NCBI GenBank assembly: GCA_043228905.1
Contig: JBHGNT010000006.1
Location: 9,424,001 to 9,488,000, forward strand
Origin: Azolla caroliniana
Taxonomy: Eukaryota; Plantae; Polypodiophyta
DNA length: 64,000 nucleotides
Reading direction: 5' to 3'
Below the pieces are notes generated by a model that did no database searches, was not told the DNA's origin, and saw only the letters and a program-made list of their open reading frames with translations. Below, one piece after another: positions 1 through 59,685 of this stretch (the stretch's first letter is position 1; every line of letters begins with the position of its first letter). Made by a program: the position numbers and the translations under genes.

Positions 1-613
1 AAGATGGCCAATCAATACAAATCACGGATGGAAGATTTGCTCAGCAACAAAGACTACGGAGGACTTGTACGGAGCTTATCCCAATGTTAAAGTCGCGATC
101 GGGGATGTGGAGATGGATCAACACTTCTTCGTGCTAGAATTGACGTCGCATCTTGTCCTCCTAGGACAACTGTATATCACATCATCTCGGATGGAGACCA
201 AAGTGTTCGATAATGGAGAAGCCTTCGCATGAATAAAGAGTCTTGACAACCAAAGATCTGTTCAATTCCTAATGGAGCGAGCTAATCATGAAAGAAATCG
301 AGATAGTCTTGGAGGCGAATCCTCGGATTTTTAGAGCGGACTATTGAAGCATGGGGCACAAATAGTCCGAGCGATCACAAGTCCCCACAAGAAAGAAGAG
401 CACATGGATTACGAGGAGAAGCAACATGTGTCACACCTAGTGGCACATGTAAACTAGTACTACCTGACAAGAAGGACAAGCTTCAGATACAAGAATTCGA
501 GAAGATGCTGAAAGAAGAAAACATAATAGAAGAAGAAGATTTCGTGACTCATATTATGGAAGAAGCCTCATTTAACGACACCATCGGCGAAATCGAGGAC
601 GTCGTGGACTTGA

Positions 614-3600
614 TTGAGCTATCTTCACGACCAACGCATGATTTCGGTTAACTCCGTCAACATGTACGCTATCATCGATGAATACCATCATGGCATCTTG
701 ATGGAGGAAGCTGAAGTTAACACAAAATATAAAATGGTGGATAAGAAGATCAAGCCAGTTGCGGTTCCGCTACCGGAAGATAGCTGGCAAAAGATGAAGG
801 AAGTCGCTAACGATCCAAGCTTAAGAGACCCAAAGACAATAGGTCATGTCTTCACCGAAGAGACGAAAAGAAAGTTACGAGTTGGAAAGGAGGATTTCCT
901 CCTCCCTGAAGAGGAGCGAAAGTTTTATGAAATGCTTGAAAGGCATGGGAAAGCCTTCATGTTCTCTCCCCAAGAAATCGGATGTGATGACCCAAAGATT
1001 ATAGAGCCGATTGTGATCTTCACGGTGCCGCATGTGCCTTGGAATTTGAAACCGATACTAGTTCCAAGAGTGCACCTTCCGAAGCTGATTGAGCTTTTAA
1101 AGGAGAAAGTGAATATGGGTATTCTAGAACCGTCGAATGCTCCTCACTCTAATAGGTGGTTCACGGTGCCGAAGAAGAATGGATCATTGCGATTCATCCA
1201 AGATCTTCAACCCGTCAACAAGGTGACAATTCGAAATGCTGGAATTGGTCCGAGCGTGGACAAATTTGCCAAGGCGTTTGCGGGCCGGTCCATCTACTCC
1301 ATTGGTGATCTCTACTCCGGATATGACCAATTCCAATTGGCGATCGACAATCGTGACATTACAACCATGAGGACTTTGATCGGGCTCGTGCGGATGTGTA
1401 CCTTACCTCAAGGTGCAACGAACTCAGTGGCTCATATGGTGAATGCCATGAACAAGGTCTTGAAGGATTGCATCTCGGACATCACGATGCCATTCTTGGA
1501 TGATATTCCGATAAAAGGATGTTCAGATGAGGAGAAAGATGAATCGAAAGATAAGGAAGGGTGTAGAAAGTTCATCATGGATCATATGAAAGATTGTGAG
1601 AAGGTGCTCCAAAGGCTTGAAGATGTGAATTTGACGTTTTTGAGAGAAAAATCCACATTCGGGCAACCATAGATCTTGGTGGTAGGTCACTTGTGTGGAG
1701 CATACGGCCGGAAGCCTTCACCATCCAAGGTGAACACGATCTAGGATATGAAAGAAGAATGTGTAAACCAAACAGAGGTTCGAAGGTTCCTTGGAGCATG
1801 CGCGTTTTATCATATCTGGATTCCGCACTATGCCCATGTCGCCGAGCCTTTATATGGATTGCTAAAGAAAAGAATGAAGTTCGAATGGCAAGACGAACAC
1901 ACAAACGCGATGCGAAAGTTGAAGAAACTACTTCTTGAAGCTCCAACATTAAGAAACGCCGACTATACCGAAGGGAAGCCGATTTATGTGACTGTCGATA
2001 TGAGTCCAACCGGAATCGGGTGGGTCATCAACCAAGAAGGAGAAGATAATGCGCAATATGTCATTCGGTTCGGAGCAAAGGTTCTCAGCGAACGACAACA
2101 AAGATACGCCGAAGTCAAGCGAGAACTTTAGGGTATTGTGTCGGCAGTGAAGACGGACAAAGATTACCTGATCGGATCGAAAGTAATAATTGAGACCAAT
2201 TGTCTCCCAATCCTTGGGATTATCTTAGGATGTGCGACACCAGATCTAGCTATGCTAAGGTGGATCGCCTATATCAAGTCTTTAAACCCAGAGATCCGCC
2301 ATATTGTAGGGAAGAAGAACGCCATGGCTGACATGCTGTCGAGGGCAAGATTTGAGAATGAAGGTGACATGGTTTTAGAAAATGAAGACGTCACCCTCGA
2401 CTTCTTCAAGATGGAGCCCTCCACTATAGGCGGAAGACAAGGGCACGCTAACCCTCCACGCCTTCAACGAGGACGAGTACGAAGGGGAGTGGTTACTAAT
2501 CGGCAGATTCCTAAGAATGATGACGACGGATGCTTCGTTGACGAAGGAGGAGGCCCTACGAATCCGGAAGAAACCAAAATGAAGGACACCCAAAAAGAAG
2601 GACAGGAATACCACGTCGAGTGGTGGTGAAGAAAGAAGAGCAAGTGACGCTAATGACCGAATTCCACAAGAGTCCCTGGGCAGGTCATAGAGGAACACGG
2701 GCGACGTTTGAGAAGTTGAAGGAGAAGTATTGGTGGCCAAGCATGTACAAAGATGTACTCCATTTCGTGTCCACATGCGAAACATGCCAAGTACATTCGA
2801 ATATCCGTCATCGTGATGAGCTATGACCGACATACCCGCTCACCATACACTTCAAATGGATGGTGGATCTGGTCTCAATGCCAATGGGAGTGGGACAAAT
2901 GAAGTACTTAGCTCTGGCAAGAGAAGACTTGACAAATCAAGTGGAAGGACGAGCCTTGACAAATAAAATGATGTTGGTTGTTTGCATATTTCTACTCAAA
3001 GAGGTTGTCTGTCGATACAGATGTGTAGGAAAGATAGTTGCCGACCGAGGGGAGTTGGATGCACACGAAGCAACGGAGCTCTTCGAACGACTAGGCGTGA
3101 AGCTCTCCCTCACGACTGCCTACAATCCAAAAGCACATGGAAAGATTGAGCGAGGGCATGGAACTATCGTCAAAACCATCGTGCGAGCATGCAACGGTCG
3201 AGTCGAGAATTGGCCACGACTATTGCCCTATGCCTTGTGGGCCGACAGAACGACACACAACTCGGTGACGGGGTATATGCCAACAGAGCTTATGTATGGA
3301 CAAAAGCCGGTAATGCCCATCGAAAGGACGATCGCCTCCTAAGTAGCGATACCATGGGAGAACGAGATGAGCTGAGAAGAGTTTTTAGTGGCACGGATAA
3401 GGCAACTTGAAAGGAGACCTGAAGATCTAGAAAAAGCGCGAAAGATGATGGAGGCAGCCCGAGTGAAGAACAAAATTCAGTTCGACAAGACGCATCGACT
3501 GCGTCCCAAGAAATCGAAGAAGGAGATTGGGTATTGGTCTACGACAACAGCCTTGACAATCAACACAGTACAACAAGGAATTTCGCAAGTAGATGGTTCG

Positions 3601-3800
3601 GACCATATATAGTGATATGTGCCAACGACAATGCAACATACCACCTTGCGGAGCTAGATGGATCAAGGCTGGCCATACCCATTGCCGGGAAAAGAGTAAA
3701 GATTTTTAAGAAAAGACAAGACGAGGATCCTGACCTCGATCATCTCGACGATGAAGGTAATAGTGCGGATGTGAATGAAGATGTGGAAGAATCTGATTAA
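614..3800 (+). pseudogene. pol: gypsy pol (RT-RNase H-integrase), fragmented
   Basis: ORF pieces 614-1672, 1748-2131, 2138-2629, 2620-2826, 2860-3342, 3388-3612 and 3534-3800 carry consecutive pol motifs separated by stops/frameshifts. Confidence 0.92.
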
Positions 3801-4909
3801 TCACCGTCGCCGAAATCTTGCACTCTCTCTTCTTGGCACGTACCGGAGGACATGCGGTTTGGTGGGGGTGGATGTCGTGAAGATTTTCGGCGATAGTGTG
3901 AAACTTGTAAGGAACATACGAAATCGAGCGTGGTTCTTCACACGAAATATAAACAATAATAGTAAATATACTATTTTAAATAAGTTTAATACCTCGGTAC
4001 AAAATGATGGAGGTCTTGAAGAGCTTCTGAATGTACTTTACTACATAGGAAACATACATCTAAGTGTCGAGTTATGTGGGTATAAAGTTTGCAAAGAAGA
4101 AGAGAAAAATATGTGATATCCCACATAGACAGGACAAATAAGGAACCCACCATATATAAGGCAGAGAAAAAGCTATTATCTTTGTGTTTATGTGTGGAGT
4201 ATAGAAAGGTTAAGTTGTATGACTTAACGAATGAATGTAGCCAAATGCACATAACTACGTATTTTGGACGAATCCGGTGGCGGCGATCGACGGTGACTGG
4301 TGACGACGACCGACGACGATCCTTGCATATTCAAAAGGAGTGCAAGTGAAGACTTGATCCTTGCACCTCCACATTGAGAGTCTATAGACTTACCACTAGG
4401 CTATGTCATTTCTTTAGAAATGTTTTCCCTATCATTATAGTTTTACATGTAAATTCTCATATTAGAGCTTAATTGAGTGAGATGTGATGCATGAGTGCCA
4501 AATGGCAAACATGCATCACATGCATTCCATGCATCACATGCATTCCATGCATTGTATGCATGTCTTGTACCCTCACATGCATCATATGCATGGGTGCGTT
4601 TTTAAGATTGCTTAAAGTGTGCGGAACTTCATCGAGGGTTGTTTGGGGTGGACTCAAGTTTAGATCTTATTTGTATGTCTAAACATAAGTAGTGATATAG
4701 TTTTAGAAGAATAGAAAAGTGAGGGCGTGGGTGGGGGTTAGGGGAGTGTAGCTTGTTGAAATTATCAAAAGTATTTAAACCTAATCAAAGTTTTTAGAAT
4801 ATATTAAAGATCATTGGGATAACTTAAGTTATTAGACAACAATAACGTACTATTAAAACACCAATATAGAGTATTATTAAAACGGGACCACACGCTTAGA
4901 TGAACGGGA

Positions 4910-5440
4910 GTTGTTTAAACACACGCTTAAGCAAACACTTAAAAGAAAGATTATTATAAAAAATAAAAATAAAAATAAAAATAGAAAAGAGAGATTGAGA
5001 TTAAAAAATGATTATGGTTAAGAAGGGATTATGATTAAGGGGGAAGGGGTTGCTAAACAAAGTACTTAAACGAATGTTTAAACAAATATTTAGATAAGAA
5101 AACACTTGGGCAAACACTTAACGCAAGGTTAGGATTAAAAGAGAAGGGAGGGATTATGGTTAAAGAAAAGGGGTCATGGTTGAGAAGAGAATGATTATGA
5201 TTAAGAGAGGAGAATACTTAAACAAAAAGTTAAACCTAAAAATGATTGAACAAGTACTTAAAAAAAAGGGGTTAAACAAGTACGTAATAAAAATGTTTAT
5301 TAAACAAGTACTTAATAGAAAATGATTAAATAAATGCTTAAAAACTTAAGACAAAATTTTTTTTGATAAAAAAGTGATTAAACAAGTACTTAATAAAAAT
5401 TTATTAAATAAGTACTTAAGAACTTAAGACAAAAAATTAG
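4910..5440. repeat. AT-rich degenerate minisatellite in the PLE 3' region
   Basis: TTAAACAAGTACTTAA-like units at ~5052, 5246, 5272, 5300, 5326, 5378 and 5404 (~26-28 nt spacing in the cluster), plus GATTATG(G/A)TTAAG units at 5010-5205. Confidence 0.75.
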
Positions 5441-5490
5441 ATAAGAGCAACACATAGAAGGAAAGAAAGTTTTACTATCATAAGGCAACG

Positions 5491-5536
5491 ATCGGCAAAT
5501 GCATTTCGCCTCGATGGAGGCTCTTCATTGCCCGAT
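5491..5536 (-). ncRNA. Minimal type I hammerhead-ribozyme-like motif (variant core)
   Basis: Minus strand reads ATCGGGCA-ATGAAGA-GCCTC-CATC-GAGGC-GAAA-TGCA-TT-TGCCGAT: stem I (one bulge), core with A in place of C3, 5-bp stem II, GAAA, palindromic UGCA stem III, AUU triplet. Sense to the PLE. Confidence 0.7.
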
Positions 5537-5698
5537 GTACAAATGATGAAAACTAAGCCTACTAGGTTGCTCTTTTTATAGGGAGAGGGAGGAGAGTCCT
5601 TTGTATGTGGGACATACAAAAGTGTGTACAAAGGGAAGGTACAAGAGTGTACACAAGACTTTAGGTGGGGGTTAAGAGGGGTGAGAGTGCATAAAACA

Positions 5699-7469
5699 TT
5701 AGGTGGGGGGAAAGGATGCGTGTACTAGGTGGTTTCTTAGTTTTTTACCATTTAGCCAACACGTGAGAGGGGGTGTAAGGGAAGTGTATTGTGGTTGTCC
5801 TAGAAGGGGTTTAAGTTTGTTTCTCACGAGCGCTCCGGTTTGGAGTTTTTTGATACATGGGGAGTATCGAAGCTTAAAAACAATGGGTGGAGGTTTTTTG
5901 TTGTTGGGTTGGTTAGAGAGTAGTTGGTTTCGTATGGAGTAGGGGACGGTCGAAAAACACTTGAGTAGGAACTTCGATGGGTAGCCCCTAGCTCTTAGGC
6001 GGTTGTAGAACTTTTTGCGTAGTTCCATGTAGCCATTTTCCGAGCTCTCCCGGATAGCATACCGTTTTAGTTCGCCCGTGATGAAGCCCTTTTTGTGTGC
6101 TATGGGGTGCGAGGATTTCCACGGGAGGTACATGTAGGCATTGAGAGGTTTTTGGTGGCATGTGGTGTCGAGGATGCCGAATTCTTTAAAGTATGGGCCT
6201 TTGAAGAAGTCGACGTCCAGGATGGTGATCTCTTTAGGGGAGGTTGTTGATTCAATACGGATGTGTTGTTGTAGAGGCACGCCGTATTGGTGTAAGAAGG
6301 TGTGAAGTGTATCGGGGGAACCTTCCCAAACTCCTATGGCATCATCGATGTAGCGTTTGTAGTAGAGTAGTTGCGGTGTTTGGAAAGCTAGGTTGTCGTC
6401 CTCTAGCTGCGAAAGAAACAAGCAAGCGTAAACAACCGCAAAATTACTACCCATCGCAGTGCCTTTAATTTGTAACCAAAAAGCATTATTAAAGGAGAGA
6501 AAATTGTTTCTAAGTATTAGTTCGGCAACACTCATAATGATTTTGGTTTTGTGGTGGGAAATGATGTGAAATAGATTTTTTAAAAACCAATAGACCTTCC
6601 GTGGTAGGTATACTGGGATATAGTGACACTACGTCAAAAGAAAACAACGTGCAAGTTTTGGGGAAGGTGTGGTGTGCTAGGTCCTTAACAAGTGTTAAGG
6701 AGTCTTTGAGGTGTTGTTTTTTAGACAATAAGACAAGATGTAATAGATGGTGTAGCCATTTAGAGGCTCTTTCGAAAACATAATTGTTGTAGGCGCAAAT
6801 AGGGCGTCCTACAACAATGGGCTTGTGGATTTTGGGGATGATGTAGAAACGACATATCCTGAAACCATGTTTGGGTTTCTGAAGGAGGAATCTAATTTCC
6901 TCATTGGAGAGGTGGGGGGAAGCTTTCAGACATAGGTGTTCAAGTCGACTGTGGAGAGTTTCTAGGGGGACGTCTTTGACGGGGGTGTAAGTGTTTTTGT
7001 CGTTGAGCTGTCTAAGGCATTCGTTAAGGTACCAATCCTTAGAGAGAATGCACGTGCCTAGATTTTTATCCGCGGGTTTAATAACTATGTCTTGATTTTT
7101 TTTGAGATTATGTAGTGCAGTTCTAAAGTTCCTATGAGGGCGAGGTTGGATGGTGGGTGGGGAGGGGAGGGCAGAGGTGATAGATGTGATGGTTTGTGTG
7201 ATTTCTGGGACGGCTGGGGGATTCCAACTGGGGTTCGGTATTCTAAATGGAGAGATAATGTTAGTAGAGTTTCTAAAGAAATATTTGAGGCGGTAAGTTC
7301 TATTGAAGGATACAACGGCATCTATCAATTGTTGTTTTCTAATAGGTTGGGGTGGGGGAATAAAGTCTAGACCTAAGCTTAGAAGTTTGAGTTGGGGTGG
7401 AGGAAGGTGGAAAGAGGAAAGGTTGTGCAATGAGTGATTAGTGATCCTATTCTCGAGCTGGGAGGGTGT
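5699..7469 (-). pseudogene. PLE reverse transcriptase (~590 aa when repaired; single +1 frameshift near 6545)
   Basis: N-terminal HNLSS..LLSLGLDFIP, IVIKPADKNLG, FYIIPKIHK, FDVVSLYPSIP, QIKGTAMGSNFA, YKRYIDD, ILDV and thumb YLPWKSSHP..ELKRY..LRARGYP. ORFs 6510-7430 and 5699-6535 join by removing one A from CACAAAACC. The frame is open up to the 7471 junction. Confidence 0.9.
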
Positions 7470-7471
7470 GC

Positions 7472-7697
7472 AATGTGTAAACCAAACAGAGGTTCGAAGG
7501 TTCCTTGGAGCATGCGCGTTTTATCATATCTGGATTCCGCACTATGCCCATGTCGCCGAGCCTTTATATGGATTGCTAAAGAAAAGAATGAAGTTCGAAT
7601 GGCAAGACGAACACACAAACGCGATGCGAAAGTTGAAGAAACTACTTCTTGAAGCTCCAACATTAAGAAACGCCGACTATACCGAAGGGAAGCCGAT
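7472..7697 (+). repeat. Exact 226-bp copy of gypsy pol 1758-1983 (templated filler)
   Basis: Base-by-base identical to 1758-1983 (AATGTGTAAACC...GGGAAGCCGAT). The same peptides appear twice in the ORF track. Confidence 0.95.
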
Positions 7698-7881
7698 CTA
7701 AAGTTAAAAGTACGATCTTATCTCTCTCACTCTCTATCTCTCTCTCGCCATCTCAATCTCTCTCCCTCAAACTATCTTAAATCCTTTCTCGCTAAAGCTA
7801 GTGGGTGCTTCAAGTCCTTCCGGTCCAGAACCCCGGCGGTTCCGCCTCACGATCTGCACATAGAGACGGATCTTCACGACA

Positions 7882-9274
7882 CCGGCACCGCTATTCGCGT
7901 CCGGTCAAGCTCCGCAAGATGGTAAGTACCGTTGTTGTTTGAGCTCGTTACGGTGTAGGGCCCGAATCACCTCCTTGCAAACTTCCACGTCGCTTTGTGC
8001 TGGTTGTCCAGGCTGTTGTCGTAAACCAGCACCTAGTCACCTTCCTTGATCTTCTTCGGTCGTAGCTGGTGGGTTTGGTCGAACCGGCCCTTGTTCTTTA
8101 TCCTTGCCGCGTACAGCTTTGCCTTCGCCCGCTCCACGTCCTCCGGTCTTCGTTCGAGCTGCCGAAAATGCGCCGCTAACAACTCTTCCCGACTCATCTT
8201 GTCTCTCCAATTCACCGCGGCCCATTTGGAGATTGTCCGTTCAATCGGCGTGATCGACTTCTCCCCGTACATCAGCTCTGTCGCCATGAACCCGGTTACC
8301 GAACTATGCGTACTTCGGTCTGCCCATAACGCGTAAGGCATAAGCCGCAACCAGTTCCCGATTTGTCCTCCGCATGCCCACACCAACGCTTTTATGATCC
8401 GCCCGTGCCCACGCTGTACCTTCTCGTTAGCCTTCGGGTTGTACGCCGTAGTGAGGGAGAGCCTAACCCGTAGTTGTCCAAACAACTCTTTTGCTTCCTG
8501 CACATCCAACTCTCCCCGGTCAACCACGATCTTCCCTACACACCCATATCAACATACCACCTCTTCGATTAGGAACGGGCACACAACTGCGGTCGTCTTG
8601 TTGGGCAATGTACGACCCTCCACTTGGTTCGTCAAGTCCTCTCGAGCAAGCACCAGGCACTGCATCTACCCTACCCCGATCAACATCGTCACTAAGTCCA
8701 CCATCCACTTGAAGTGGACGGTCGGTGGGTAGGTCGGGTGCAGCTCGTCTCGATGTCGGATCGCAGAGTGCAATTGGTAGCTCTCGCACGTTGTTACAAA
8801 CTGGTGCACGTCCCAGTACAACCTCGACCACCAATACTTCTCATTCAACTTTTCGAATGTGGCCCATGTCCCGTGGTATCCGGCCCAAGGAATCATGCTA
8901 CGCTGTCAACAAAGCCTCGTGCTCTTCCTTCCCTGCCACTACACGGAGTGGAATACCGCCTCTCTTTTTCGGGAGCTTCCATATGTCCCCGTCCTGCAGG
9001 AAGAATTGGTACGCCTTCTTCCGGATCCGGTTAGCTTCGTCTTCCATCCAGGCGGCGTCTGGCGTCATTGTCTTCAGGAACCTACTGATCTGGAGCTAGT
9101 CCTTGTTGTACTCACCGTCATTGAACTCGCTAAGCGCCGGAGTGCTCCTTGTCCTCGTCATCATGCAAGCCGACTCGAAGAAGTCCACGCCGACTTCTTC
9201 TTCCTCCGAAACCATGCCATCTTCGTTATCAAACCGCGCTCTTGAAAGCATGTCGGCCATGGCGTTGTCCTTCA
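7882..9274 (-). mobile_element. Second gypsy copy of the same lineage (RNase H end, zinc finger, integrase), decayed
   Basis: Minus-strand ORFs 8033-8527 (LSLTTAYNPKAN..ALWADRSTHSSVTG) and 8666-8896 (WAGYHGTWATFEKL..HFKWMVDLV); KDNAMADMLSRARF at ~9230-9272. Confidence 0.88.
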
Positions 9275-13617: not shown

Positions 13618-15125
13618 TGTCGTGTGGTTTTTCACACACGATATGAAAACTAATAAAATAATTATTTATGATTAGCTTAATATATTGATATGCAAAGATA
13701 GATGTGTTCAAGAGCTTCATAATATATTTTACTACGCATGAATTGGATAAATAAGTATCAAGTTATGTGAGTGAGAAGTTTGAAGAGAAAAAGGAAAAAA
13801 TACAAAACTGTGAGATATCCCACATAAATAGGTTAACATTAAAATGCAGGATATATAAGGGAAACCAAAACATATTCATTCTATCAATGTGTGGAGCATA
13901 GAATGTTCAAGGTGACTTGGGTTACATTGTGTGGTGTGCACGCTTCGGGTGTACACGCGTATGCACGGTCGTGTTGATGCTTCGAGTGTACGTGCGTACT
14001 GTATGCACGTCCACGTGGATGTTTTCGGACGTACGCTTCGGGTGTACACGCGTATGCACGGTCGTGTTGATGCTTCGGGTGTACGTGCGTAGTGTATGCA
14101 CGTCCACGTGGACGTTTTCGGACGTACACGTGTGTGCAAGTTTTGGGCGTACGCGTGGACGTTTCAGACGAACGAGCGTGCGGTCAGGACGCGCGTGAGT
14201 GCGGATGCGTACATGGCGACGCTTCGGGTGTACATGCGTATGCACGTCCGTGTGTGTGCAAGTTTTGGGCGTACGCGTGCACGGACGCGTGGACGTTTTC
14301 GGACGTACGCGTGTGTGCAAGTTTCAGGTGCACGCATGCACAGACGAGCAAGGGGATGCGTACACGGTGCGGTCGGGACGCACGTGTGTGTGGATGCGTA
14401 CACGGTGCGGGTTGGACGCGCGCGTGCGTGGATGTGTACATTGCGCGGTCGGGACTTTTGCGCGCGAACGCACATATCTACGGTTTGGTTGTGACGCACG
14501 TACGAATTGCGCACGGGCTAAACTTTATGGATGATTGTGTCATTTGGCCGAATTATACGGACAGTCGCATGCAAACAAAAGCCAAGGCCATGCAACTAAA
14601 AGTAAAAGGCATGCATCTAAAAATGGAAGCATGCAACTAAAAGTAGAGGCTATGCAACTAAATGTGGGCATGCAAAGTAACACTGGGGAGGAGGATCAAC
14701 AAAGAGCTCGATATATGTCCCATTTTTTCCCTCTAGTTTTTTTTTTTTTTCCTTTCTTGCTTCTTCTTCCCTCTCGGATTCGAGAAACAAATTATCTCAC
14801 ATATTGATATCAAATGCCTAGCTTTGTTTACTGGAGTTTTCTTGTCAAAAATTATCTCTCGTATTCATATCGGACCACTCCTTGCATGGTTGTTGGCTCC
14901 TTTCTTTGAAAAATTAATCTCTCATTTCCATACCGAACCCATTGTAACACGATTCTGAAATTATAAAGAATCGATTTTCTTTTGCAATAAACTAATGATT
15001 TGTCTCTTCCACTTGTCTTATGCTTAAAACATGCTTGTGTTGTACGTGTTGCACTAAATCCTTCTAGTCCAGAACCCCGGTGGTTCCGTCTCACGATCCA
15101 CACATAGTGATGGATTTTCACGACA
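13618..15125 (+). mobile_element. Solo gypsy LTR with 4-bp TSD (ACGT) inserted in the copia protease region
   Basis: TGTCGTG...CACGACA ends with ACGT on both sides. Removing it restores SNHMTCHKEWF. Similar to LTR 3873-7881 at both ends. Confidence 0.92.
13935..14520. repeat. CpG-rich tandem repeat (93-bp unit, then degenerate subunits) inside the solo LTR
   Basis: CGCTTCGGGTGTACACGCGTATGCACG recurs at 13941 and 14034. The region is built from palindromic words (TGCA, CGTACG, CACGTG, ACGCGT). Confidence 0.85.
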
Positions 15126-21204: not shown

Positions 21205-24200
21205 TGTTGAGAATCAAGCTCAACTTGGTCTAGTGTGTGAACTCACCTTGAGAGTGAATAGACACTCCAACGGTCAAGAGTCACCATTATGTCACCTCTT
21301 TGTATTCTAGCATTTAGTATGAGTCATAGAATCATATTCTATGACACATAACTTATGAGCTTTCACATTCCCCATGCTCCATGAGTCTTGTAGTTAATGA
21401 AGAGAGAGGGTGACTATATAAAGCACCCTCCTCCCACCTTGTATTGTGTTGAGTCTTTCTCCTTTGTTAATATACTTACCTTGCATATACTCTGTGTCTT
21501 ACTCCTTGTCTCTCACACACACATACACTCTCTCTCTCTCTCATACACACACACACACACAGAGTTCACACCTATTCCGCCTCACAAGAATCCATCTCTT
21601 GATTCTTTACATGGTATCAGAGCGAATTGGTAGTTCTATCTAGCCCATTTGCCTCATTGTGATCGTGTGTTGTGCTCCACGCCGACGACCAAGAACCAGC
21701 TCATCACTATCGTAGCTTCGCTACATAGCTCGCATTCGAAGAGAGAAGAAGAAGAAGAAGAATCGACATAATGAATACTCAAATGGGGAGTGCTCTCCCT
21801 ATCGAGAAGTTGGATCGAAACAACTTCGCATCTTGGGAGTACAAGATGCACCAATACCTTGTCGGACAAGGCTATTGGAGCTACATTAAAGGAGCGCATG
21901 AAGACCGACCCGTCGACATGGCTCCCGGATACGCAACATGGGAGCAAGCTGCAAGCCGTGTAATGTATTGTTTGGCGACATGTGTTCATGACCACATGCT
22001 CGGTTACATTCGAGAAGCCAAGACGCCGAAGGAAGTGTGGGAAAATCTACGAAAGATTTTCGCTGCCAACACGACCGCGAGGAAGCTTCAACTTCGCCAA
22101 GAGTTGAACAACATTCAACAAAGGGACATGTCCATCACGACATAAACCTTGAAGATCAAGGAACTTTGCGACTCACTCGGCTCAATAAGCGTAAGTATTG
22201 ATGATGATGAGATGGTGCAAATATGCCTCGGCGGCCTCGCACCACGGTTCGGCGTGATGCGAACCGTCGTTCTAGCAAGGGAGAAATCTCCCTCCTTCTT
22301 CGAGCTCCAATCAATGCTATTGGTTGAAGAAAACCACGTGCGTACAATGAGCAATGAGTCGGAAGGCCACATGCTCTACACGCACTTGAACGGAGGAAGA
22401 GGACGCAGATGAGGTCCGACCTACGACAACAACTCCCAATTTTGGCCTCAAAACGGAAGCCTACGAGGAACCTTCGCAAGAAGGGGGAGCTTCCACTCCG
22501 GCCCAAGCCGTCAAAACGCAACTGAATGCGGATATTGCGGAAAGCTCGGCCACCACGAAGAAGAGTGCTGAAAGAAGATGCGCGAAACGGCTTCCACAAG
22601 CCGACAACTCACGAACTACGCGCACAACTCCGACTACGAAGATCGTGGCGGAATGTATGCACACAACTCCGACCGTGGCGGAATGTTCATGATGAAATAT
22701 AGAGCAAACTCTATGATGGCCTCTACCTCAACTAGTGCCTCCAGTTCGGAAGACGTATGGTTCGTCGATTCCAGTGCCTCGAACCATATGACATCGCATC
22801 AAGAATGCTTCCGAGAACTTCGAGAGCCGGACCGACCCGGCTATGTCGAAACCGGAGATGACACTACACACCCGATTCGGCACATCGGCAATGTTCCATT
22901 CGGAAAAGAAGGTAAGCAAATTTACATTAAAAATGTCTTGCATGTACCGACCATTACGAAGAATTTGGTCTCCGTCGGCCAAATTGTAGAGCAAGGGATG
23001 CAAGTTCGATTTAATCAAGGCGGTTGCTTCATCGAAAAAGAGGGCCGACTCATCGCACGCAGACGAAGAGAGGGCCAAATGTTCATTCTCGACTCACACA
23101 AGATGAAATCGTCCATGTTCGCAAAGGGCATGAAAGCCGACTTCGACATAGAGTTATGGCACAAGCGGATTGGCCATATAAATCTCCAAAAACTCAAAGC
23201 AATGAAATCGAAAGGAGTCGTCATCGGACTCCCAACATTCAAAGAGAAGGAGATTGAAGGTGTATGTGAAGCGTGCCAATTCGGCAAGCAACACCGACAC
23301 CCATTCCCGAAAGAGCGAAACGTGAGCAAAGGTCTAGCCAACATAGTCCATTCCGACGTATGGGGACCGGCGCAGACGGCTACATTCGGCGGATGCCGAT
23401 ATTACGTACTCTTCATCGACAACTTTTCTAGGCACACTTGGATCTACCCGATGCGGCAAAAGAGCGAAGTGTTCGGACACTTCCAAAAATTCAAGAATAA
23501 AGTTGAGAAAGCCACGGGCCGACATGTCGATGTCTTTGATCGGATGGCGGCAAGGAGTACTTCTCGGACGATTTCACGGCGTATCTCCGAAAGGAAGGAA
23601 TTCGGCGAGAATTCACTTGCCGACACACTCCGCAACAAAACGGAGTAGCCAAGCGCAAAAATCGGCACATCCTCGAAGTAGTGCGGGCCATGATGAACGA
23701 GAAGCATATGCCCAAGTCATATTGGGCCGAAGCTGCAAATACGGTCATCTACCTAATGAACTGGTGCACAACATCCGGTGTGCACGAGGTCACTCCGCAC
23801 GAAAAATACTTCGGAAAGAAACCGGACTTATCGCACATCCGGATATTCGGCGCGATAGCGTACGTGCACATCCCCGACGAGAAGCGTCAAAAGCTTGACC
23901 CGAAGTCGGAGAAATGTATCCTCATAGGATACTCATTGGAGCAAAAAGGGTACAAATGCTACAAACCCTCAACTCGAAAATCTCGAGTAAGTCGAGATGT
24001 CATTTTTGATGAGTTCGCATCCTGGTACGCACCAGAGACAACTTCGACTCCGATTTCGCTCGACCTGGAATCCGTCGAACAAGAGATACAGGATGAAGAT
24101 CACCTTACGCACATGTTCGAAGAAAGTCTGATTACGACCCGACTAAGCGGACCACAAGAGCCTTTGAGCGATCAAAGCACATCACGGCCTAGCCCGAAGA

Positions 24201-28778: not shown

Positions 28779-29377
28779 TCATGGGCGACCTTCTTCTTCT
28801 TCTTCTTCTTCTTGTCTTCCTGGCCTTTCGTCTTGTCTGCCATAGCCACCATTACCTCCTCCATCTGGACCTCCATCTTCTAGTTGGTTGTTCTGTCCGC
28901 CTCCATGTCTTCCCTGGGTCCTATGACAAGAAAAGAAGAACCAGAAAATTATGTGAGCCTTTTGGAATCATGGATGGATGGATGGATGGATGGATGAGAC
29001 AAGAAGCCATATGACCACATATCTGACCACATATCTGCAGGAGATCAAACTATTTAAAATCAACAGACTCGACAAATGAAAGAAGAGACGAGAGGTGCAT
29101 ACCCAGACGAAGAATTGGGGCCTGAGGTAGACTCCTTCATTCCGTGATATTCAGAGAATGGGGGAACCCCCGCAAAACCTCTGCTCCTCACGACTACAGG
29201 GCTGGATTTGGCGTCCACATCTCCAAACACTGCTCTCAGTGCTTCTTTTGCCTGCTCTTCCTGTCTCCTTTTCTCTTTCTCTCTACTTTCTTCTTCACCT
29301 CCCCCTCTTATCTTCTCTTCTCCTTTTATCTCTACGTCTTCTTCTTTCCGATGATGCGCATAAGTTTCGTCAGCCAT
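28779..29377 (-). CDS. Two-exon gene for a small hydrophilic Glu/Gly-rich protein (138 aa), function unknown; copy 1
   Basis: GCCATGGC start; exon 1 29377-29103; GTATGC...TTTTCTTGTCATAG intron 29102-28921; exon 2 28920-28779 stays in frame (GTQGRHGGGQNN..EEEEEEEGRP*). Same structure in the paralog. Splicing is inferred. Confidence 0.65.
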
Positions 29378-31095
29378 GGCCTTTTAAGTTAAGCTTAAAT
29401 TCTTTTTGATGATCGCTGCAAAGAGAAACCCTACACAATCAAATCAAATGAAAAATCAAATTCAAATTGAACAGGATCCAAGAAAGCAGAAACCCAAGGA
29501 AAGAAGAAGAAGAAGGATTTATGAAGCCTCTCGATGATCCAGTGAGAGAGAGAGAGAGAGAGGTAGTCTTGCCTCTGTCAGTCTGTAGGTCTCTGAATGA
29601 ATGGATGGATGGATGATGAAGGTGAGTGAGGTCCAATTTAAGGAGGAAAGAAGAAGAAGGTGGGATGATCACGATTCATGATGATGATAAATCTGTGGGC
29701 GACTTACTTTTCTGTTTCAACCATCTTTCCCAACTCTCTCTGACTTTGTCTTAGAGTCCTGTCTTTGTCATGGAGTCTTCTCTTCGTTTTTTTGCTTGAC
29801 CCTTGACTTTTGAAACACACTTGTTTTCATTGACCCCACCAACACATCATACATTCACACACGCACACGCATACGCACACGCACACGCACGCACTCACAC
29901 ACACAACACACATGCACACGCACACGCACGGATGCATACGTTTGTCGAGTCTTGAGTCTTGCCCCCTTGGGTGACGATGTTCCTAAGGAATGAACAAATC
30001 TCCCTATGCCCCTATTCCTAAGTGCTTCATTTCAGGGTTGTTATCGAGTGAACAAATGACCTAAATCGACGCCCTGTGTGTATGCACCTCCAATAACTTG
30101 GCTTGTTGCCACTCCCATTAGTAATGGGTGAACAGATATTGCATAACCTTAGATATTGCATAACCTTCCTACATTCATCATTGCTATACTACATACATAC
30201 ATACATACATACATCTCCATGTGTACAAGTGTGTGTGTGTGTGTGTGTGCATGTGCATGCGTGGTTTTGGATGAATGTATAGAGACATCGAAGCTACAGT
30301 GTATAGAGAAACATCTTCTCAAACAGTTTGGCAATACAAAGAACCTAAGTTATTACAGTAGTGAATATCTCTAATTGCAAAATAAAACCTCTCAAGTGTT
30401 GTAAGACTAGATGACACAAAGGCGTTTCGTTCGAGGATTGCAACCAAGATATAACTACCAAATCACTTTTCCATTCAACCTATGCATTTGTTCGATTTGC
30501 AATTACCATCAAACGGAAACCCCTTTGTCATACTCTAATTATACTATAGACCCCGGATACCGAAGGTAGTCAAACCATTCCTTATACAATTGCTAAAGGA
30601 AAAACGCTTACCCATATTAAAAAGGGTGACCAAAATTCATGACTCCGTACCTTATATTGTGTCATAACCACCCCAATGGCTTTATCAACTGGGTAGTTAA
30701 GGAATCTTTGTCACGTTATCCTTAATCATTGTAGTGAAAAAATAAAGACCAACTCTCTCTAGACGTTAGCTTAATAGTTTATGTTATAGCATTAAAGTCA
30801 TAAAGTTGAGAGAAGCGAACTTTCATCTTGACCATATGCTATGGCCCATAACTTAGATCGCAATTATTCTCTCATGGACTTTAAAAAGATTTCCCTCTCT
30901 CTTGATAAATAGAAGATGATAATGATATTTGAAGTCCCCTCTATAAAGTAAGAACCAAAGAGATTACATATTTAAATAATATATCCGAAAGGATAGCTTT
31001 TGAATTTCTAAAGTATAGTATATTTAGTTTTTGAGTTTCTAATATAGAAGGTAGACATACATATAGGCCCCCCTCTATATATTATGATCAGGAGC
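28830..31095 (+). repeat. Segmental direct repeat, copy 1 (gene plus ~1.7 kb upstream)
   Basis: Collinear with ~57660-59685; nearly identical over exon 1 and intron, clearly more diverged upstream. Confidence 0.9.
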
Positions 31096-51577: not shown

Positions 51578-54500
51578 TTCCGTCACTAGCACCGTCCAAC
51601 TATCAAGGCCAACAGTTCCACGGGGATGTCCTCAACGTCGTTGCAACTCAACTACGTGTCCGTAGATGTTTACATCCCGCCATCTTCACCGAACGCCTCA
51701 ACAAGACCCTCAAACACGAGATGGCTGCATAAATCAACCCTTTTCGAGCACTATGAGCGTAACCCTCGCCTCGCATTAGAATCATCCATGGATTTCCATT
51801 TGAAACTTGCCATCAGATGCTCCCCCTCCTTCGATAAGCCACTGCTCTTGTTCTTATTCATGTACCTGTCCTGTTCTTGTTCATGCCCCTCAATCTCTTG
51901 TTTCTCGTAGGGGGGAAATGTGGTGTGCATGTGTTCCCTTGTGCCACCCTTTTAGCTCACCCTTTTTAGGATGCATGTACCCAAGTTGATCCACCCTTTT
52001 AGCACACCCTTTTTAGCCAATCCAGCCCAAATGGGTTCCGTTGTATCAACTATAAATTGATTAAGAAGTAAGAAGCTGAGTAGACTGGTTTTGATCTCTT
52101 ATGTGCATTTCACAATATTTATTATATCGGGTACTTTATACGTTTTTCATGTAGTGTACGAAATACACTAAGACAATGTGATTTATAGGCAAATTTTTTG
52201 GAATACCGTTCACATGACAGGTAATGTTAGCCGTAAAAAAGGCAACACTGGTTATAGTTATTCACTAGGTTGAAAAGGGTGTACAGTTGGAATCTTTTAC
52301 AATATGACGTAGATTAAGGATTAATTATTCACTTTTCTTTTTCAAAGAAAGAAAGGGAATAATGATAAGTGCATTTAATGCCAAAATTGATTCGGGCGGC
52401 TCATTTGGATAATTGGAGAGTGCACCACTTGGTTTTTTACTTATTTTTCAAACTTTTGGGTTCTTTTTTCTTCTTCTTCTTGTTCTTAACCTACTTGAGG
52501 TTTAAGGGTTTATTTTCCATCGTCTTCATGAGTAGTCTTCTTAGTTATATGCCCTTTTTGGGTTTTTTATTGCTATTTTCTTTTGGCGGCGTCTTCGACT
52601 TTCAAACTAATTTCCTACTTACGTCTATTGGATTATTTTACTTTTGTTATGAGCTAGCATCGGGGGAGCATTCGTCTACTTTGGAGGTTTGTCTTCTTCT
52701 CTGTAAGGAAGAACGCTACGCATTGGCACTTTCATGAGAAGGATTTGGCTACCTCGCAGTCAGGCAATTGTTGTTGTGGTCCTAATAGCTCATTGGAGTC
52801 ACCTTCACCGGAAACTCCGTAGTTCCCCCCTTCTGTTTGTGCTTTAATTGTATGAACATTTTATAAAAAACCAATTGAAATCGTGGTACTCTAGCTCTAA
52901 TCGTCATAACCTTTAATTTTTAAAGAGATCCCTTGTATACTTTTGCTCACATTTTTGTCTTAATCTCATGCACATTCCCTTAATTGTGTGTTTTGATCCT
53001 AATCACATGTTTTAATCCAAATCGCGTGATAATCATCATTTGACTCGTTGCTTCCTTCGCATTTGAAGAGCCTTTGAGTCTAAGTCCGAACACAGGCTTT
53101 GAGTTTGAAGAGCCTAGGCTCCCTTCAACTCTGGGCTCCCTTCGGCTCTGGGACCTTTTACTCTGGACTCCCTTCTATTCTAGAGACCTTTGGACTCTAG
53201 GCTCGCTTAAAATCTAGGAACCTTTTGACTCTGTTGACTCTACACTCCCGTCAACTCGAAGGATCTTACCCGTCCGGGAATCATTCGACTCTAAAGAACC
53301 TTGGACTTCTAGGAGTGTTTGATTCGATTGACGTTTGCACCTTCCAAGTCCTTTTGTCCTCCCTGGTTTAAGTCCCTTATGGTCTTGCTTGAGTAGCACA
53401 TGCACGTGCATTATCATGACATTAATTTGGTGAGCCTGACGTGAAAGAATGGTAGGGGCGGATGACAGTGGAAGAAGAATATTTCGCGGTGATGATTTCA
53501 AGAATGATGATAAGATTAGTGAAGGAAAATGAAAGACGAGATGTGGCTCAACATGTTGTCGAGAACTTTGATACCAATGAACAAAACGATGACAGTAATG
53601 TGTAAGTTCTTACTCGAAGATGTCATCTACCGGTACAGTTGCATGGGAAAGATAGTGGAAGATAGAGGGCAGTTAACTGCTCTTGAAGCTACGGAGTTTC
53701 TTTGAATTACTTAGAGTGAAGCTCTCCCTTACAATTACCTATAATCTAGAGGTAAACGGGAAGATAGAGTGCGGACATGGGCATGTAGTTAAGGTCATCA
53801 TAAGGGCCTTCAAAGTGCGAGTCAAGAATTGGCCATGGTTGTTAAATTATGCCTTGTGGGTTGACAGGACCACTCACAGTTTGGTGACAGGGTTCATGCC
53901 AACCGAGTTAATTTACAGACAAAAACCGGTGATGCCCATTGAGGAAACGATCACATAATGGGTAGTAGTTCCTTCGGAAAAGAAGATGAGTCTAGCAGAC
54001 CTTCTAACAACAAGGATAAGACAACTCAAGAAATACCTAAAAGACTTTGAGCTAGCAAACGAAAGGCTAAAGGAGGCCAAGCTAAAGAACAAAGCCTGAT
54101 TTGACAAAACACACTGATTATGCCTTAAGAAGATCGAAGAAGGTGATTGGGTGATTGTGTACAACAACAACCTCGATAATCAACATAGCTCGATGAGGAA
54201 TTTTGTGAGGCGTTGGTTTGGCCCTTACATGGTGAAAAGCTCAAACAATAACGCCACCTACCACCTTGTCGAGCTCAACGGAACAAGGCTAGCAACACCG
54301 ATAGCAAAGAAAAAAGTCAAGATCTTCAAGAAACAACATCAATCAAGGACAAGCCAAACCTCGACAGCGTCAAAGATGAAGACGAAGAAGGGCGAGTGGA
54401 GGAGCTCAAGCACAACAAGGAGCATGATATTGAAGACTGACTACCTTTATCCCCACCAATTGTTCTCTCTTATGGCACATGCTAGAGGATGTGCGATTTG

Positions 54501-54617
54501 GTGGGGGTGGAAGTCGTGATGTGACATGGTCGAAAGTGGGAAAAGGAAGGGTGGAAGCATGTAGAAAAAATGAGAGATGTGAAAAAAGGGGAAAAGAAAA
54601 CATAAGGGAGAGATCTA

Positions 54618-54774
54618 AAAAGGGGGCCACGTGGATTAAGGAGAGCATTGAATGCAAAAGGGAGTTCCCTCTTTCTATATAAAAGGAGGGGTGGAGGGCA
54701 TTTTAGACATTTTATAGAAAGAGGCCACTCCCTTTTGCATTCAATGCGCTCCTTAATCCACAAGCCCCCCTTTT
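54618..54774. repeat. Long inverted repeat (~65-bp arms, ~25-nt loop) in an LTR
   Basis: GTGGATTAAGGAGAGCATTGAATGCAAAAGGGAGT..CCTCTTTCTATA pairs with TATAGAAAGAGG..ACTCCCTTTTGCATTCAATGCGCTCCTTAATCCAC. Confidence 0.9.
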
Positions 54775-54878
54775 GCTCCTACAAGGATTTTAGGCATTTT
54801 ATTCTCTTCTTTGGAGTGTTGTTCTTCATTGTCTTCAACGTTCATCCTTTGGAGAGGATTAGTGAGCTCGTAGATTAG

Positions 54879-55933
54879 TGTCGTGTTAAACAAGGTACAC
54901 CAAGGGAAAGCGATGAAGAATTGTGATTTCACGTTGTCATGGGTGTCATGAAGGAATTGCTTCACGATATAAAAATTGTACTCAAGTATTATACTAAGTG
55001 ACATTTGAAAGACTTAAACCCACAACCTTATATACTAGGGGAAAATGACAAAGAATTGTGATTTCACGTTGTCATGGGTGTCGTGAAAGAATTGCTTCAC
55101 GATATTAAAAATGTACTCGGGTATTATAGTAACTGACATTTGAAAGACTTAAACCCACAACCTTATATACCAAGTAGAAAGTACATATCACTAGGCTAAG
55201 TTATTTTTTTAGTCTAACTATATTTTCACCGATAGTAAATACTAAATAATATACTTGAATGCATTGGGAAACATTCTTTTTCATACGAATGCAAACGAAT
55301 GTGTATGTTATCAAAACATTCTTACGTTGTTTTTTACACTTTATACCTTCACTATTTTACCTAAAATTTTTTTTACCTTATAATAAACAATGAATATAAA
55401 AGTATGGTATTTACCATACTTCGAGGGTGTTTACCATACTCGAATGATTGAAACATTCTCGTATGCGAATGCATGTATGGTACATACTATGTTTTCATCA
55501 TTGTACTTATCCCATGTAAATTTTCATACATGAGAGCTCGAAGAGGGAGATGGTTATCATGCATCACATGCATTTCATGCATTGTATGCATGTCTTGTAC
55601 CATCACATGTATCATATGCATTGGGGCAACTATATAAGAAAGGAAGAGAAAAAGCAAACGGGGAACTAGAAAACAGGAGCTAGCTCATTGAAAAAGTATC
55701 TTGTTTCTTAAAGTTGAAGTTAAGGGTTCAAAGCCATAATAATAATAATAATATTCTTCTTCAACATCTTCTTATCCTTCATCTTTTGAGCTATACCAAT
55801 TTTCAATCTTCTGAAGTGTAGCTTTGTTTTCCTCGCATCTTTGTCTTTTCGTTAGCTTGGCGAAAGTCCTTTCCGGTCCAGGACCCCGATGGTTCCGCTT
55901 CAGTTCACTAACACACGAGGATTTTCCTCGACA
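54879..55933 (+). mobile_element. Solo gypsy LTR related to 3873-7881, with a ~134-bp tandem duplication (54918-55170)
   Basis: TGTCGTG start and CCTCGACA end; shares the GCATCACATGCATT..CATATGCA block with 4512-4590; flanks TTAG/TCGG match poorly as a TSD. Confidence 0.65.
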
Positions 55934-56470
55934 TCGGCCACTCGAAGAGACAATGGAGTGACGTGAGAACTCTACCCTGACTCGTGTTGTCGAAGCCATT
56001 AGAGGTAACCATGGTCCACCGAACTCGTCTTCACGGGAAGCTTGAATCCTCTTCTCCTACCTTTCCTTCTTTCTCTACTACTTAGTTAATGGTTGGCATT
56101 TCCACTACCGTTGTATTCATCTACTCTCACTATTATACGCCCTAAGATATAAAGGTTTTCTCTTGATTAACCAAACGTTTTATAACCTTAAACAAGGATA
56201 TTAGGCTGTAATCTCCTTTGTGGGTTCTTTTTATTGTGATCAAAGAGAGATCAAGGTACAACGTAGCTTTCACCCTTCAACTCCTCACTCCCTTCGACTT
56301 TGGGCTCCCTTTTGACTCTCGAAATCTTTCGAGTGCAAGGATCAATTGACTCTAAAGAACCATGGACTCCCAGGAGCATTCGAGTCCACTAGTGTCTGCA
56401 CCTTCCAAGTCCTTGTGTCCTCTCTAGTCCCACTCTAGTAGCACTTGCAAGCGCGTTATCGTGACACCAA

Positions 56471-57621: not shown

Positions 57622-58194
57622 TTAGCGAGATGTGGAGGAATGGCCACCAACTCCTCCATTTCCTGCTTGTCTGCCATAGCTACCATTACCTCCTCCATCT
57701 CCATCTCCTCCTCCTTCTCGTTCGTTGCTCTGTTCGCCTCCCTGTCTTCCCTGGGTCCTATGACAAGAAAAGAAAGACCAGAAAATTATGTGAGGCTTTT
57801 GGAATCATGGATGGATGGATGGATGAGACAAGAAGCCATCTGACCACATATCTGCAAGAGATCGAACTATTTAAAATCAACAGACTCGACAAATGAAAGA
57901 AGAGACGAGAGGTGCATACCCAGACGAAGAATTGGGGCCTGAGGTAGACTCCTTCATTCCGTGAAATTCAGAGAATGAGGGAACTCCCGCAAAACCTCTG
58001 CTGCTCACGACTACAGGGCTGGATTTGGCGTCCAAATCTCCAAACACTGCTCTCAGTGCTTCTTTTGCCTGCTCTTCCTGTCTCCTTTTCTCTTTCTCTC
58101 TACTTTCTTCTTCACCTCCCCCTCTTATCTTCTCTTCTCCTTTTATCTCTACGTCTTCTTCTTTCCGATGATGCGCATAAGTTTCGTCAGCCAT
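57622..58194 (-). CDS. Two-exon gene for a small hydrophilic Glu/Gly-rich protein (136 aa); copy 2
   Basis: Exon 1 58194-57920; GT..AG intron 57919-57758; exon 2 57757-57622 in frame (GTQGRQGGEQSNE..GGHSSTSR*). Exon 1 differs from copy 1 at 4 residues. Confidence 0.65.
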
Positions 58195-59685
58195 GGCCTT
58201 TTAAGTTAAGCTTAAATTCTTTTTGATGATCGCTGCAAAGAAAAACCCTACACAATCAAATCAAATGAAAAATAAAATTGAACAGGATCCAAGAAAGCAG
58301 CAACCCAAGGAAAGAAGAAGAAGAAGAAGGATTTATGAAGACTGTCTGTAGGTCTCTAAATGAATGGATGGATGGATGGATGATGAAGGTGAGTGAGGTC
58401 CAATTTAAGGAGGAAAGAAGAAGAAGAAGAAGAAGAAGAAGGTGGGATGATAAATCTGTGGGCGACTACTTTTTTTGTTTGACCCATGCTTCCCAACTCT
58501 CTCTCTCTCTCTCTCTCTCGATGTGTCTCAAAGTCTTCTCTTTGTCATGTAGTCTTCTCTGTTTATTTATTTATTCTTGTCTTGACTTTTGACTCTTTGA
58601 ATCGTTCGTGTTCTCATTGAGTCCCCAGAACAGGCGCACACACTTTCATGTCTGTTTCTCGAAGACTTGCCCACACGATGATAATGGTGATGATCCGGCG
58701 GTCGTCTTCCTAACGGCTGAATATTATCTACCTATAAGGGCTTCATTTCATGGTTGTTAGTGAGTGTGAACACATTACCTAAGGTGACTCCACTTCGCCT
58801 GTGTATGTAACTCGACAATCACTTTTTCTCATGCCACTCCTAAGAGTAATGGGTGAACACATGTTGCATAATTGTCCTACATTCATCATTGCTATCCTAC
58901 ATAGATAAATACATCTACATGTCTATGAGTGTGTTTGTGTGTGCATGCACAACGTCAATGCTTGCATACGTGTGTGTGGGGTTTTGGATGAATGTATAGA
59001 GACATCAAAGATACAATGTATAGAGGCACATCTTTCACATCTTTCCAAATAGTTTTGCAATATACTATAGTCAATATCTTATTGCAAAATAAAACCTCTA
59101 AGGTGTTGTAAGACTAGATGACACAAAGGCGCCCCCTTTGAGGATCACATGTGTGTAAAGTTGAGATATAATTACGAAATGAGTTTTCCATTCAACCTAT
59201 GCATTTCTTCTATTCGTAAAGACCATCAAATGGAAATCCCTTCCTCATACTATAATTGTATGATAGACCCCTAATACCATAATACTGAAGCTGGTCAAAC
59301 CATACCTTATACAATGGGAATGGAGAAGCTCTAACCCATTAAAAGCGTCTCGAAATTTTATGACCCCATACCTTAATTTGTGCCATAAACCAACCCAATG
59401 GTTTTATCAAGTGGGTCCTTTAAGGAATCTTTGTCACATCCTCCATAGTCATTGTGATGAAAAAATAAATACCGTCTCTCTATAGACGTTAGTTGAGAGA
59501 ACCAAAGGTTGATCCTCACCATATGCTATGCCCCACATAATATAGATTGCAATCATTCTCTCAATGACTTTAAAAAGATCACCCCCTCTCTCAAAAGACG
59601 ATAATGATGTTTGAAGTCTTCTCTATAAAGTAAGAACCAAAGACATAGTTATAGGCTCCTCTCTATTTATTATGATTAGGACAAA
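57660..59685 (+). repeat. Segmental direct repeat, copy 2
   Basis: Collinear with 28830-31095. Confidence 0.9.

What the first reader, a model, noticed from the sequence alone, without database searches (positions are those of the whole stretch)
7472..7697. Exact 226-bp locally templated patch at the PLE 5' junction
Seen: 7472-7697 is identical to 1758-1983 of the host gypsy pol. It sits between the truncated PLE 5' end and the resumed LTR, with no TSD and apparent loss of some LTR sequence. The donor element is otherwise decayed, so the copy is recent and probably local. The PLE cDNA strand is the plus strand and the patch continues as gypsy sense sequence, so the template was genomic minus-strand DNA or antisense RNA, not gypsy mRNA. 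Inference: template switching or synthesis-dependent break repair finished the insertion, which fits PLE integration at a DNA break.
Basis: partly seen in the sequence, partly recalled or inferred. Interest (0 to 1): 0.75.

Follow-up and report, generated by a model that had tools for sequence, protein, structure and literature searches.

The report
Scissor-less retroelement patched into DNA break
A plant jumping gene that has no DNA-cutting enzyme sits inside another element's end repeat, next to an exact 226-base copy of nearby DNA; the joint likely records error-prone repair of a chromosome break, a kind of scar already known for other mobile DNA.

Summary
Confirmed: 7472-7697 equals 1758-1983 exactly. 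Both copies share a dinucleotide (1917-18 = 7631-32) that family contigs of four runs almost never show, so the template was this local gypsy copy or a near-twin. The patch is not part of the element: five related loci and four runs continue with PLE sequence beyond 7469. New: the PLE family is a two-ORF, endonuclease-minus, tandem type, so it needed an existing DNA end. The junction has a 2-nt insert inside a 9-mer repeated 43 bp away (null P 0.003-0.011), the loop-out SD-MMEJ scar. A relative has telomeric filler at its 5' junction. Best reading: one break in the LTR, healed by PLE cDNA plus a local template switch (0.55). Rival: a later deletion with filler (0.3), since the PLE has 0.5-0.85% own changes and the patch none. 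No public contig spans either junction, but donor-specific DNA was missing too, so artefact is not excluded. Sense RNA as template is not strictly excluded. The scan noted another EN-minus PLE at a likely break in this genome.

The parts
505..3797 (+). Decayed pol (RT, RNase H, integrase) of the host gypsy element
   Evidence: Pfam RVT_1, RT_RNaseH, rve; 78-89% identity in five segments to P0121 with 6 stops
1758..1983 (+). Donor of the patch (RT-RNase H connection region)
   Evidence: Exact match; private A1917/G1918 shared with the patch
3861..3872 (+). Polypurine tract before the 3' LTR
   Evidence: Sequence; similar at 54464-54519
3873..4598 (+). Left part of the host 3' LTR; its 3' end is the inferred primer for PLE cDNA
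   Evidence: Starts TGTCGTG; similar to solo LTR 13618-15125 and to LTR 54513-55935
4599..7469 (-). 5'-truncated endonuclease-minus PLE copy, 2871 bp; lacks ORF1 and 2364 bp or more of the unit
   Evidence: 98.2% to L001 2365-5171, 92.7% to L002; full unit has ORF1 + RT ORF2 and no GIY-YIG
4599..4603 (-). Natural 3' end of the PLE (A5)
   Evidence: Same end in L002, L003 (twice), L004, L005 and in contigs of X1 and X8
5491..5536 (-). Type I hammerhead-like motif; core C changed to A at 5528 in this copy
   Evidence: Pattern intact in 6 of 6 loci; no Rfam match; folding z -0.96; activity untested
5699..7469 (-). RT ORF2 remnant (DKN, YIDD motifs) with a 2-bp loss near 6549-6553
7420..7435 (+). 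Internal template for the junction repeat (exact core 7424-7432)
   Evidence: present in intact L001
7463..7478 (+). Junction copy of that repeat: PLE end + 2-nt insert (7470-7471) + start of patch; 14 of 16 bases match, 9 in a row
   Evidence: Null P 0.0054 and 0.011 exact, 0.003-0.006 with mismatches
7472..7697 (+). 226-bp templated patch
7698..7881 (+). Right part of the host 3' LTR, ending CACGACA
   Evidence: 7812-7881 aligns with the 3' ends of both related LTRs

Best explanation
An endonuclease-minus Penelope-like element sits in a gypsy LTR with an exact local 226-bp patch at its cut 5' end, and this is likely the scar of one double-strand break healed by reverse transcription plus microhomology-primed template switching. 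Steps: (1) inferred: a break arose in the LTR and about 80-120 bp were lost. (2) Shown: the element has no nuclease and begins at its natural 3' end at 4599; inferred: its RT used the free + strand 3' end at 4598 as primer and copied 2871 nt. (3) Shown: the junction repeats a sequence 43 bp inside the PLE; inferred: the cDNA end slipped back there and added GC-AATG, which made new homology to AATG at 1758. (4) Shown: the patch carries this locus's private bases; inferred: 226 nt were copied from the donor, then 2.6-2.8 kb from the break, on the same or the sister chromatid. (5) Inferred: the end was joined to 7698 without TSD. Whether the patch grew from the cDNA end or from the other end, and whether a host polymerase or the RT made it, is open.
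For: Exact match. Donor and patch both read A,G where contigs of 4 of 4 runs read G,A (first base: all depth in all four; second: all depth in three, 22998 of 23101 in X8). Full units L001-L003 have ORF1 + RT and no GIY-YIG in 6 of 6 ORFs scanned, while the same Pfam scan finds it in 2 of 2 control proteins. Units form tandem arrays with C-strand telomere-like stretches at unit joints in L003 and L004. 9-mer repeat across the junction: 108 of 20000 (50-bp search) and 217 of 20000 (100-bp) random junctions reach it; only 1 of 16 possible 2-nt inserts gives 9. LTR resumes in order after the patch, no TSD. L003, a relative at 87% protein identity, has a telomeric filler at its 5' junction in non-telomeric flanks. 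Engineered L1 gave three insertions with DNA templated near the site (PMC11702581, passages).
Against: Age: the PLE ORF has 15 changes in 1771 bp against both L001 and L002, of which 8 were shown as nearly fixed differences; at equal age 2.0-3.8 differences are expected between patch and donor, and 0 are seen (P 0.13-0.02). 0 of 4 runs showed a contig across either junction (32 pieces listed, 277 not shown; zero depth at 7668-7728). The repeat was noticed by eye before the null was built, and its 43-bp offset is outside the +/-20 bp window of PMC2943611 (passages). GC could instead be PLE bases 3-4 beyond the end after a 2-nt loss. 226 nt is long for polymerase theta alone (recalled). Microhomology at the right junction could not be tested.
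Confidence: 0.55

Rival explanations
1. Two events. The PLE inserted first, probably longer. A later break near its 5' end deleted PLE and LTR sequence and was filled by ordinary locally templated filler DNA. The patch then says nothing about how the PLE insertion was finished, though the nuclease-less PLE still needed a free end to insert.
For: Patch and donor show 0 differences while the PLE has 0.45-0.85% own changes, a frameshift and a mutated ribozyme core; P of 0 differences at equal age 0.13-0.02. The changes are 9 non-silent to 6 silent, against 27 to 56 between subfamilies (Fisher P 0.08), which fits decay after insertion. The SD-MMEJ scar fits any break.
Against: The upper bound (P 0.13) is unremarkable, and some changes may come from a decayed source unit. 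It needs a second break to hit a PLE-LTR junction. 5' truncation and a junction filler also occur in relative L003.
Confidence: 0.3
2. Assembly or polishing artefact: a chimeric join, or read polishing that made two similar copies identical.
For: No contig in X5, X8, X9 or X10 crosses either junction. No genome or long reads were available.
Against: The same runs have no cover of the donor's own divergent stretch (7668-7697 = 1954-1983), so single-copy paths are missing generally. The LTR resumes in order after the patch, and the junction has a templated-looking insert; a misjoin would not be expected to give either. Polishing could affect only the age argument.
Confidence: 0.07
3. RNA-templated patch: the PLE RT primed from the other break end (7698) on a sense transcript of this local gypsy copy, as in twin priming, and the two cDNAs were joined through the AATG microhomology.
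For: Orientation allows it. Two-RNA insertions are reported for L1 (PMC11702581, passages). An earlier unreviewed note describes PLE copying at both ends of a break in this genome.
Against: The template must carry this decayed copy's private bases, yet the family has many better copies (summed depth about 1000 against about 4 in X1). No expression data were examined.
Confidence: 0.06
4. The patch is a fixed part of the PLE family, or came from a distant gypsy copy.
For: The gypsy family is high-copy; a near-twin elsewhere cannot be excluded without the genome.
Against: 5 of 5 loci that reach the site and 4 of 4 runs continue TTG(C/T)C into PLE sequence. The private dinucleotide is shared only with the local donor.
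Confidence: 0.02

Closest known systems
Endonuclease-minus PLEs (Athena, Coprina; Selaginella Sm1/Sm2; two-ORF Coprina-1_Alen)
   Same: RT without GIY-YIG, upstream ORF1, 3' hammerhead-like motif, tandem units, telomere-like stretches at joints (PMC8557442 introduction and passages, PMC4209133 passages, PMC13159263 passages).
   Different: This copy is inside a gypsy LTR with no telomeric repeat at either end, whereas the papers describe the group as generally restricted to chromosome ends. Clade placement was not tested with reference sequences.
Loop-out synthesis-dependent MMEJ (PMC2943611)
   Same: Short insert lying inside a direct repeat that spans the junction; primer part on one side, microhomology part shared with the other partner.
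   Different: Template 43 bp away, beyond that paper's +/-20 bp; the partner is a 226-bp templated segment, not the other break end; no genetics here.
Non-canonical and endonuclease-independent L1 insertions (PMC11702581)
   Same: 5' truncation, target deletion, extra DNA templated from near the site, RT at existing DNA ends.
   Different: L1 has its own endonuclease and poly(A) priming; that study attributes the templated DNA to processing of the reciprocal end. Here the element has no nuclease at all.
Filler DNA at plant break and T-DNA junctions (search listing and abstracts; details recalled)
   Same: Deletion plus a patch copied from nearby DNA, no TSD.
   Different: Here the filler adjoins a retroelement cDNA end.

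Membership tests
Penelope-like element | PLE-type RT with DKN motif and core RT motifs | tested here: met
   KPADKN, GTAMGS and YIDD in translation; homologues include GIY-YIG-bearing RTs P0059 and P0061. Motif names recalled; DKN also named in PMC13159263.
Penelope-like element | 5' truncation and partial tandems (pLTR) | tested here: met
   Window copy starts at L001 2365; L002, L003, L004 show tandem or circular units.
Endonuclease-minus PLE | No GIY-YIG endonuclease in the full unit | tested here: met
   0 of 6 ORFs of L001-L003 at E up to 1; 2 of 2 controls positive. A nuclease of unknown fold is not excluded.
Endonuclease-minus PLE | Hammerhead ribozyme near the 3' end | tested here: inconclusive
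   Core pattern in 6 of 6 loci, mutated in the window copy; no Rfam match; cleavage untested.
Endonuclease-minus PLE | Attachment to telomeric repeats or chromosome ends | tested here: inconclusive
   Not met for this copy; telomere-like stretches at joints in L003 and L004 and once in L001; no true chromosome end seen.
Coprina clade | RT phylogeny with reference Coprina and Athena sequences | not tested
   No reference sequences were held; only 47% identity to a Selaginella moellendorffii protein P0006.
Chlamys/Naiad | N-terminal GIY-YIG in the RT ORF | tested here: not met
Loop-out SD-MMEJ junction | [quoted passage not shown] | tested here: met
   9-mer, 14 of 16 with mismatches.
Loop-out SD-MMEJ junction | Repeat within 20 bp of the junction (criterion of PMC2943611) | tested here: not met
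   Offset 43 bp; no repeat found with a 30-bp search.
Loop-out SD-MMEJ junction | Dependence on polymerase theta | not testable with these tools
   Needs genetics.
Canonical TPRT insertion | Target-site duplication | tested here: not met
   0-bp match between the flanks.

The most novel reading that the evidence does not exclude
This nuclease-less, telomerase-related RT routinely heals internal chromosome breaks in this plant lineage, and the RT itself makes the scar: it slips back on its own RNA, creates microhomology, and jumps onto nearby genomic DNA or its transcript. Interstitial copies would then be a fossil record of break repair, with local or telomeric fillers at their 5' ends as a rule.
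Probability: 0.2. Interest if true: 0.7.

Novelty: new variant of a known kind. Interest (0 to 1): 0.42.

Why it matters
How endonuclease-minus PLEs get into internal chromosome sites, and how any PLE insertion is finished at its 5' end, is unresolved: PMC11167929 says the steps after reverse transcription are not yet validated, and PMC8557442 calls EN-minus PLEs generally terminal. This junction gives a base-level, testable trace: free end, cDNA, slip-back microhomology, local template, join. A genome-wide survey of about ten to forty copies could turn it into a rule. As a single event it is a known type of repair scar.

Tried and rejected
No genome is held for this window, so no genome-wide test of best donor, empty site or other 5' junctions. 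Junction test on contigs of X5, X8, X9, X10 at 98% likeness: no bridge, but also no cover of donor-specific DNA; inconclusive. Intact same-family LTR: not among the 15 of 83 joints or 24 of 1986 loose ends shown; two LTR patterns gave 0 matches in viral contigs. Right junction and PLE 3' junction: longest spanning repeats 6 and 4 bases, chance level. Rfam found no ribozyme; folding was not better than shuffles. PDB sequence searches gave nothing significant. L004's 5' junction has a purine-rich stretch of about 40 bp with no source in its contig. Single-copy-depth contigs at 6736 (X5) and 6743 (X9) were rejected as proof that these runs hold this copy, because each shows only one of the two neighbouring alleles. 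The two primary papers on EN-minus PLEs (PMC1890498, PMC5850863) were not available, so what they say of internal copies was not seen. Literature searches showed no listing on a locally templated patch at an EN-minus PLE junction; listings and abstract starts only, so this is weak. Supplementary figure S10 of PMC11702581 was not viewed.

Full report
Observation. Window 7472-7697 is identical to 1758-1983, 226 of 226 bases, with no extension on either side. It is the longest exact direct repeat in the window and the only second copy of that pol stretch. The donor lies in the pol of a + strand gypsy element (Pfam RT, RNase H, integrase) that has 6 stops and several frame changes against P0121. 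Its 3' LTR starts at 3873 and ends at 7881; the ends match a solo LTR at 13618-15125 and an LTR at about 54513-55935. The LTR is split: left part to 4598, PLE on the minus strand 4599-7469, two extra bases, the patch, and the right part from 7698. There is no TSD. In the related LTR two shared motifs are 236 bp apart and here 115 bp of LTR remain between them; a weak look-alike read by eye gives about 80 bp. So about 80-120 bp were probably lost, judged from another family.

Is the template local? Contigs of four runs from four studies were laid at 88% likeness (40 of 594 difference rows shown). Donor 1917-1918 and the matching patch 7631-7632 read A,G; the contigs read G,A at all depth in three runs and at 22998 of 23101 for the second base in X8. 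So patch and donor share a change that the family lacks. High-depth family contigs differ from the donor element by about 8-10% in listed pieces. Contigs drop rare variants, so a near-twin elsewhere is not excluded, but a local template is much the simplest reading.

Is the patch part of the element? No. Five of the six related loci reach the site and all go on with PLE sequence, as do loose ends at 7469 in 4 of 4 runs.

What the element is. L001 matches 4670-7469 at 98.2% and holds 2364 more bases upstream, with a long ORF1 overlapping the RT ORF2. L002 is a circular or tandem unit of about 5.15 kb; L003 and L004 are partial tandems. None of six ORFs from L001-L003 has GIY-YIG at E up to 1, while two control proteins do. 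A hammerhead core pattern is in 6 of 6 loci and is mutated at 5528 in this copy; Rfam did not report it. The 3' end is a run of five A at the same place in the window and in five ends from four loci. L003 and L004 have C-strand telomere-like bases right after that end. This fits the endonuclease-minus PLEs, which attach to exposed telomeric overhangs and are generally terminal (PMC8557442: abstract start, introduction, passages; PMC4209133 passages; PMC13159263 passages). I did not place it in a tree. Such an element cannot cut DNA by a known domain, so an internal copy implies a free end. That step is inference.

The left junction. The PLE ends at 7469, then GC, then the patch starting AATG. 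The nine bases 7467-7475 recur directly at 7424-7432 inside the PLE, and 14 of 16 bases match when extended. Random junctions of PLE and pol with random 2-nt inserts reach nine bases in 0.54% (50-bp search) or 1.1% (100-bp) of 20000 trials, and the mismatch score in 0.3-0.6% of 100000. This is the form of loop-out SD-MMEJ: a primer repeat, a copied insert and new microhomology (PMC2943611 passages). Caveats: I saw it before testing; the offset of 43 bp exceeds that paper's 20-bp window; and GC also occurs two bases further on in the intact PLE. RT slipping back on its own RNA would leave the same trace.

Other copies. L003, from a related genome (87% protein identity), has non-PLE flanks on both sides and a 16-base telomeric tract just before its cut 5' end. 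L004's 5' junction could not be resolved. So 1 of 2 other junctions shows a clear filler, of a different kind. An earlier unreviewed note reports two PLE ends fused at a likely break in this genome.

Timing. The window ORF differs from both L001 and L002 at 15 of 1771 sites and has a 2-bp loss; an X1 contig differs at 16 of 1932; 8 ORF sites were listed as fixed or nearly fixed differences. At equal age 2.0-3.8 differences between patch and donor are expected; none is seen (P 0.13-0.02). This leans to a younger patch but does not decide, since a decayed source unit would inflate the PLE's apparent age.

Artefact test. At 98% likeness no listed contig of four runs crosses either junction, and 7668-7728 has no depth. 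That gap includes the donor's own 1954-1983, so single-copy paths are missing in these contigs and the test is inconclusive. The in-order return to the LTR and the templated-looking insert argue for a real event.

Mechanism. Most likely (0.55) a break in the LTR lost about 100 bp; the PLE RT extended the + strand end at 4598 from the RNA's 3' end; the cDNA end slipped back and gained AATG; 226 nt were copied from the pol 2.6-2.8 kb upstream; the end joined 7698. Rivals: later deletion with filler (0.3), artefact (0.07), RNA template (0.06), fixed part or distant donor (0.02).

Comparison. Locally templated DNA, target deletion and RT at existing ends are reported for L1 (PMC11702581 passages); non-canonical insertions may also be changes after insertion (PMC12350158 passages). 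For PLEs the finishing steps are untested (PMC11167929 passages). Nine searches (listings only) showed no report of such a patch at an EN-minus PLE; two primary papers could not be read. Verdict: a real-looking, well-resolved single scar; known kind of process in a new setting; interest 0.42.

Noticed in passing
L003 1437-1456 and 7762-7785: Interstitial insertion of a related EN-minus PLE with a G-strand telomeric tract before its cut 5' end and a C-strand telomere-like stretch after its 3' end, suggesting telomerase acted on the break ends.
   Followed up: partly
L004 about 1285-1330: Purine-rich stretch of about 40 bp between AT-rich flank and the cut PLE 5' end; no source in the contig.
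   Followed up: partly
window 13618-15125: Solo gypsy LTR inside a copia element, with a 4-bp TSD (ACGT) and internal tandem repeats at 13940-14405.
   Followed up: partly
window 5528: Conserved C of the hammerhead core is A in this copy only; likely inactive.
   Followed up: yes
   Followed up: no
window 5793-6864 (pieces): Low-depth contigs about 7-10% diverged from this PLE in X8 and X9 point to older, dispersed single copies suitable for a junction survey.
   Followed up: no
window 1735-1748 (joints): In X8, joints 1735 to 3873 and 7858 to 1748 show another gypsy copy with an LTR element nested near this pol position; probably unrelated to the patch.
   Followed up: no
window 28832-30964 and 57666-59646: Related stretches with an exact 206-bp match (29219 and 58036) inside an otherwise 71-83% alignment; possible gene conversion.
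   Followed up: no
window 7905-9273: The host gypsy is itself inserted into another, minus-strand gypsy pol; the 3' flank begins CCGG.
   Followed up: no
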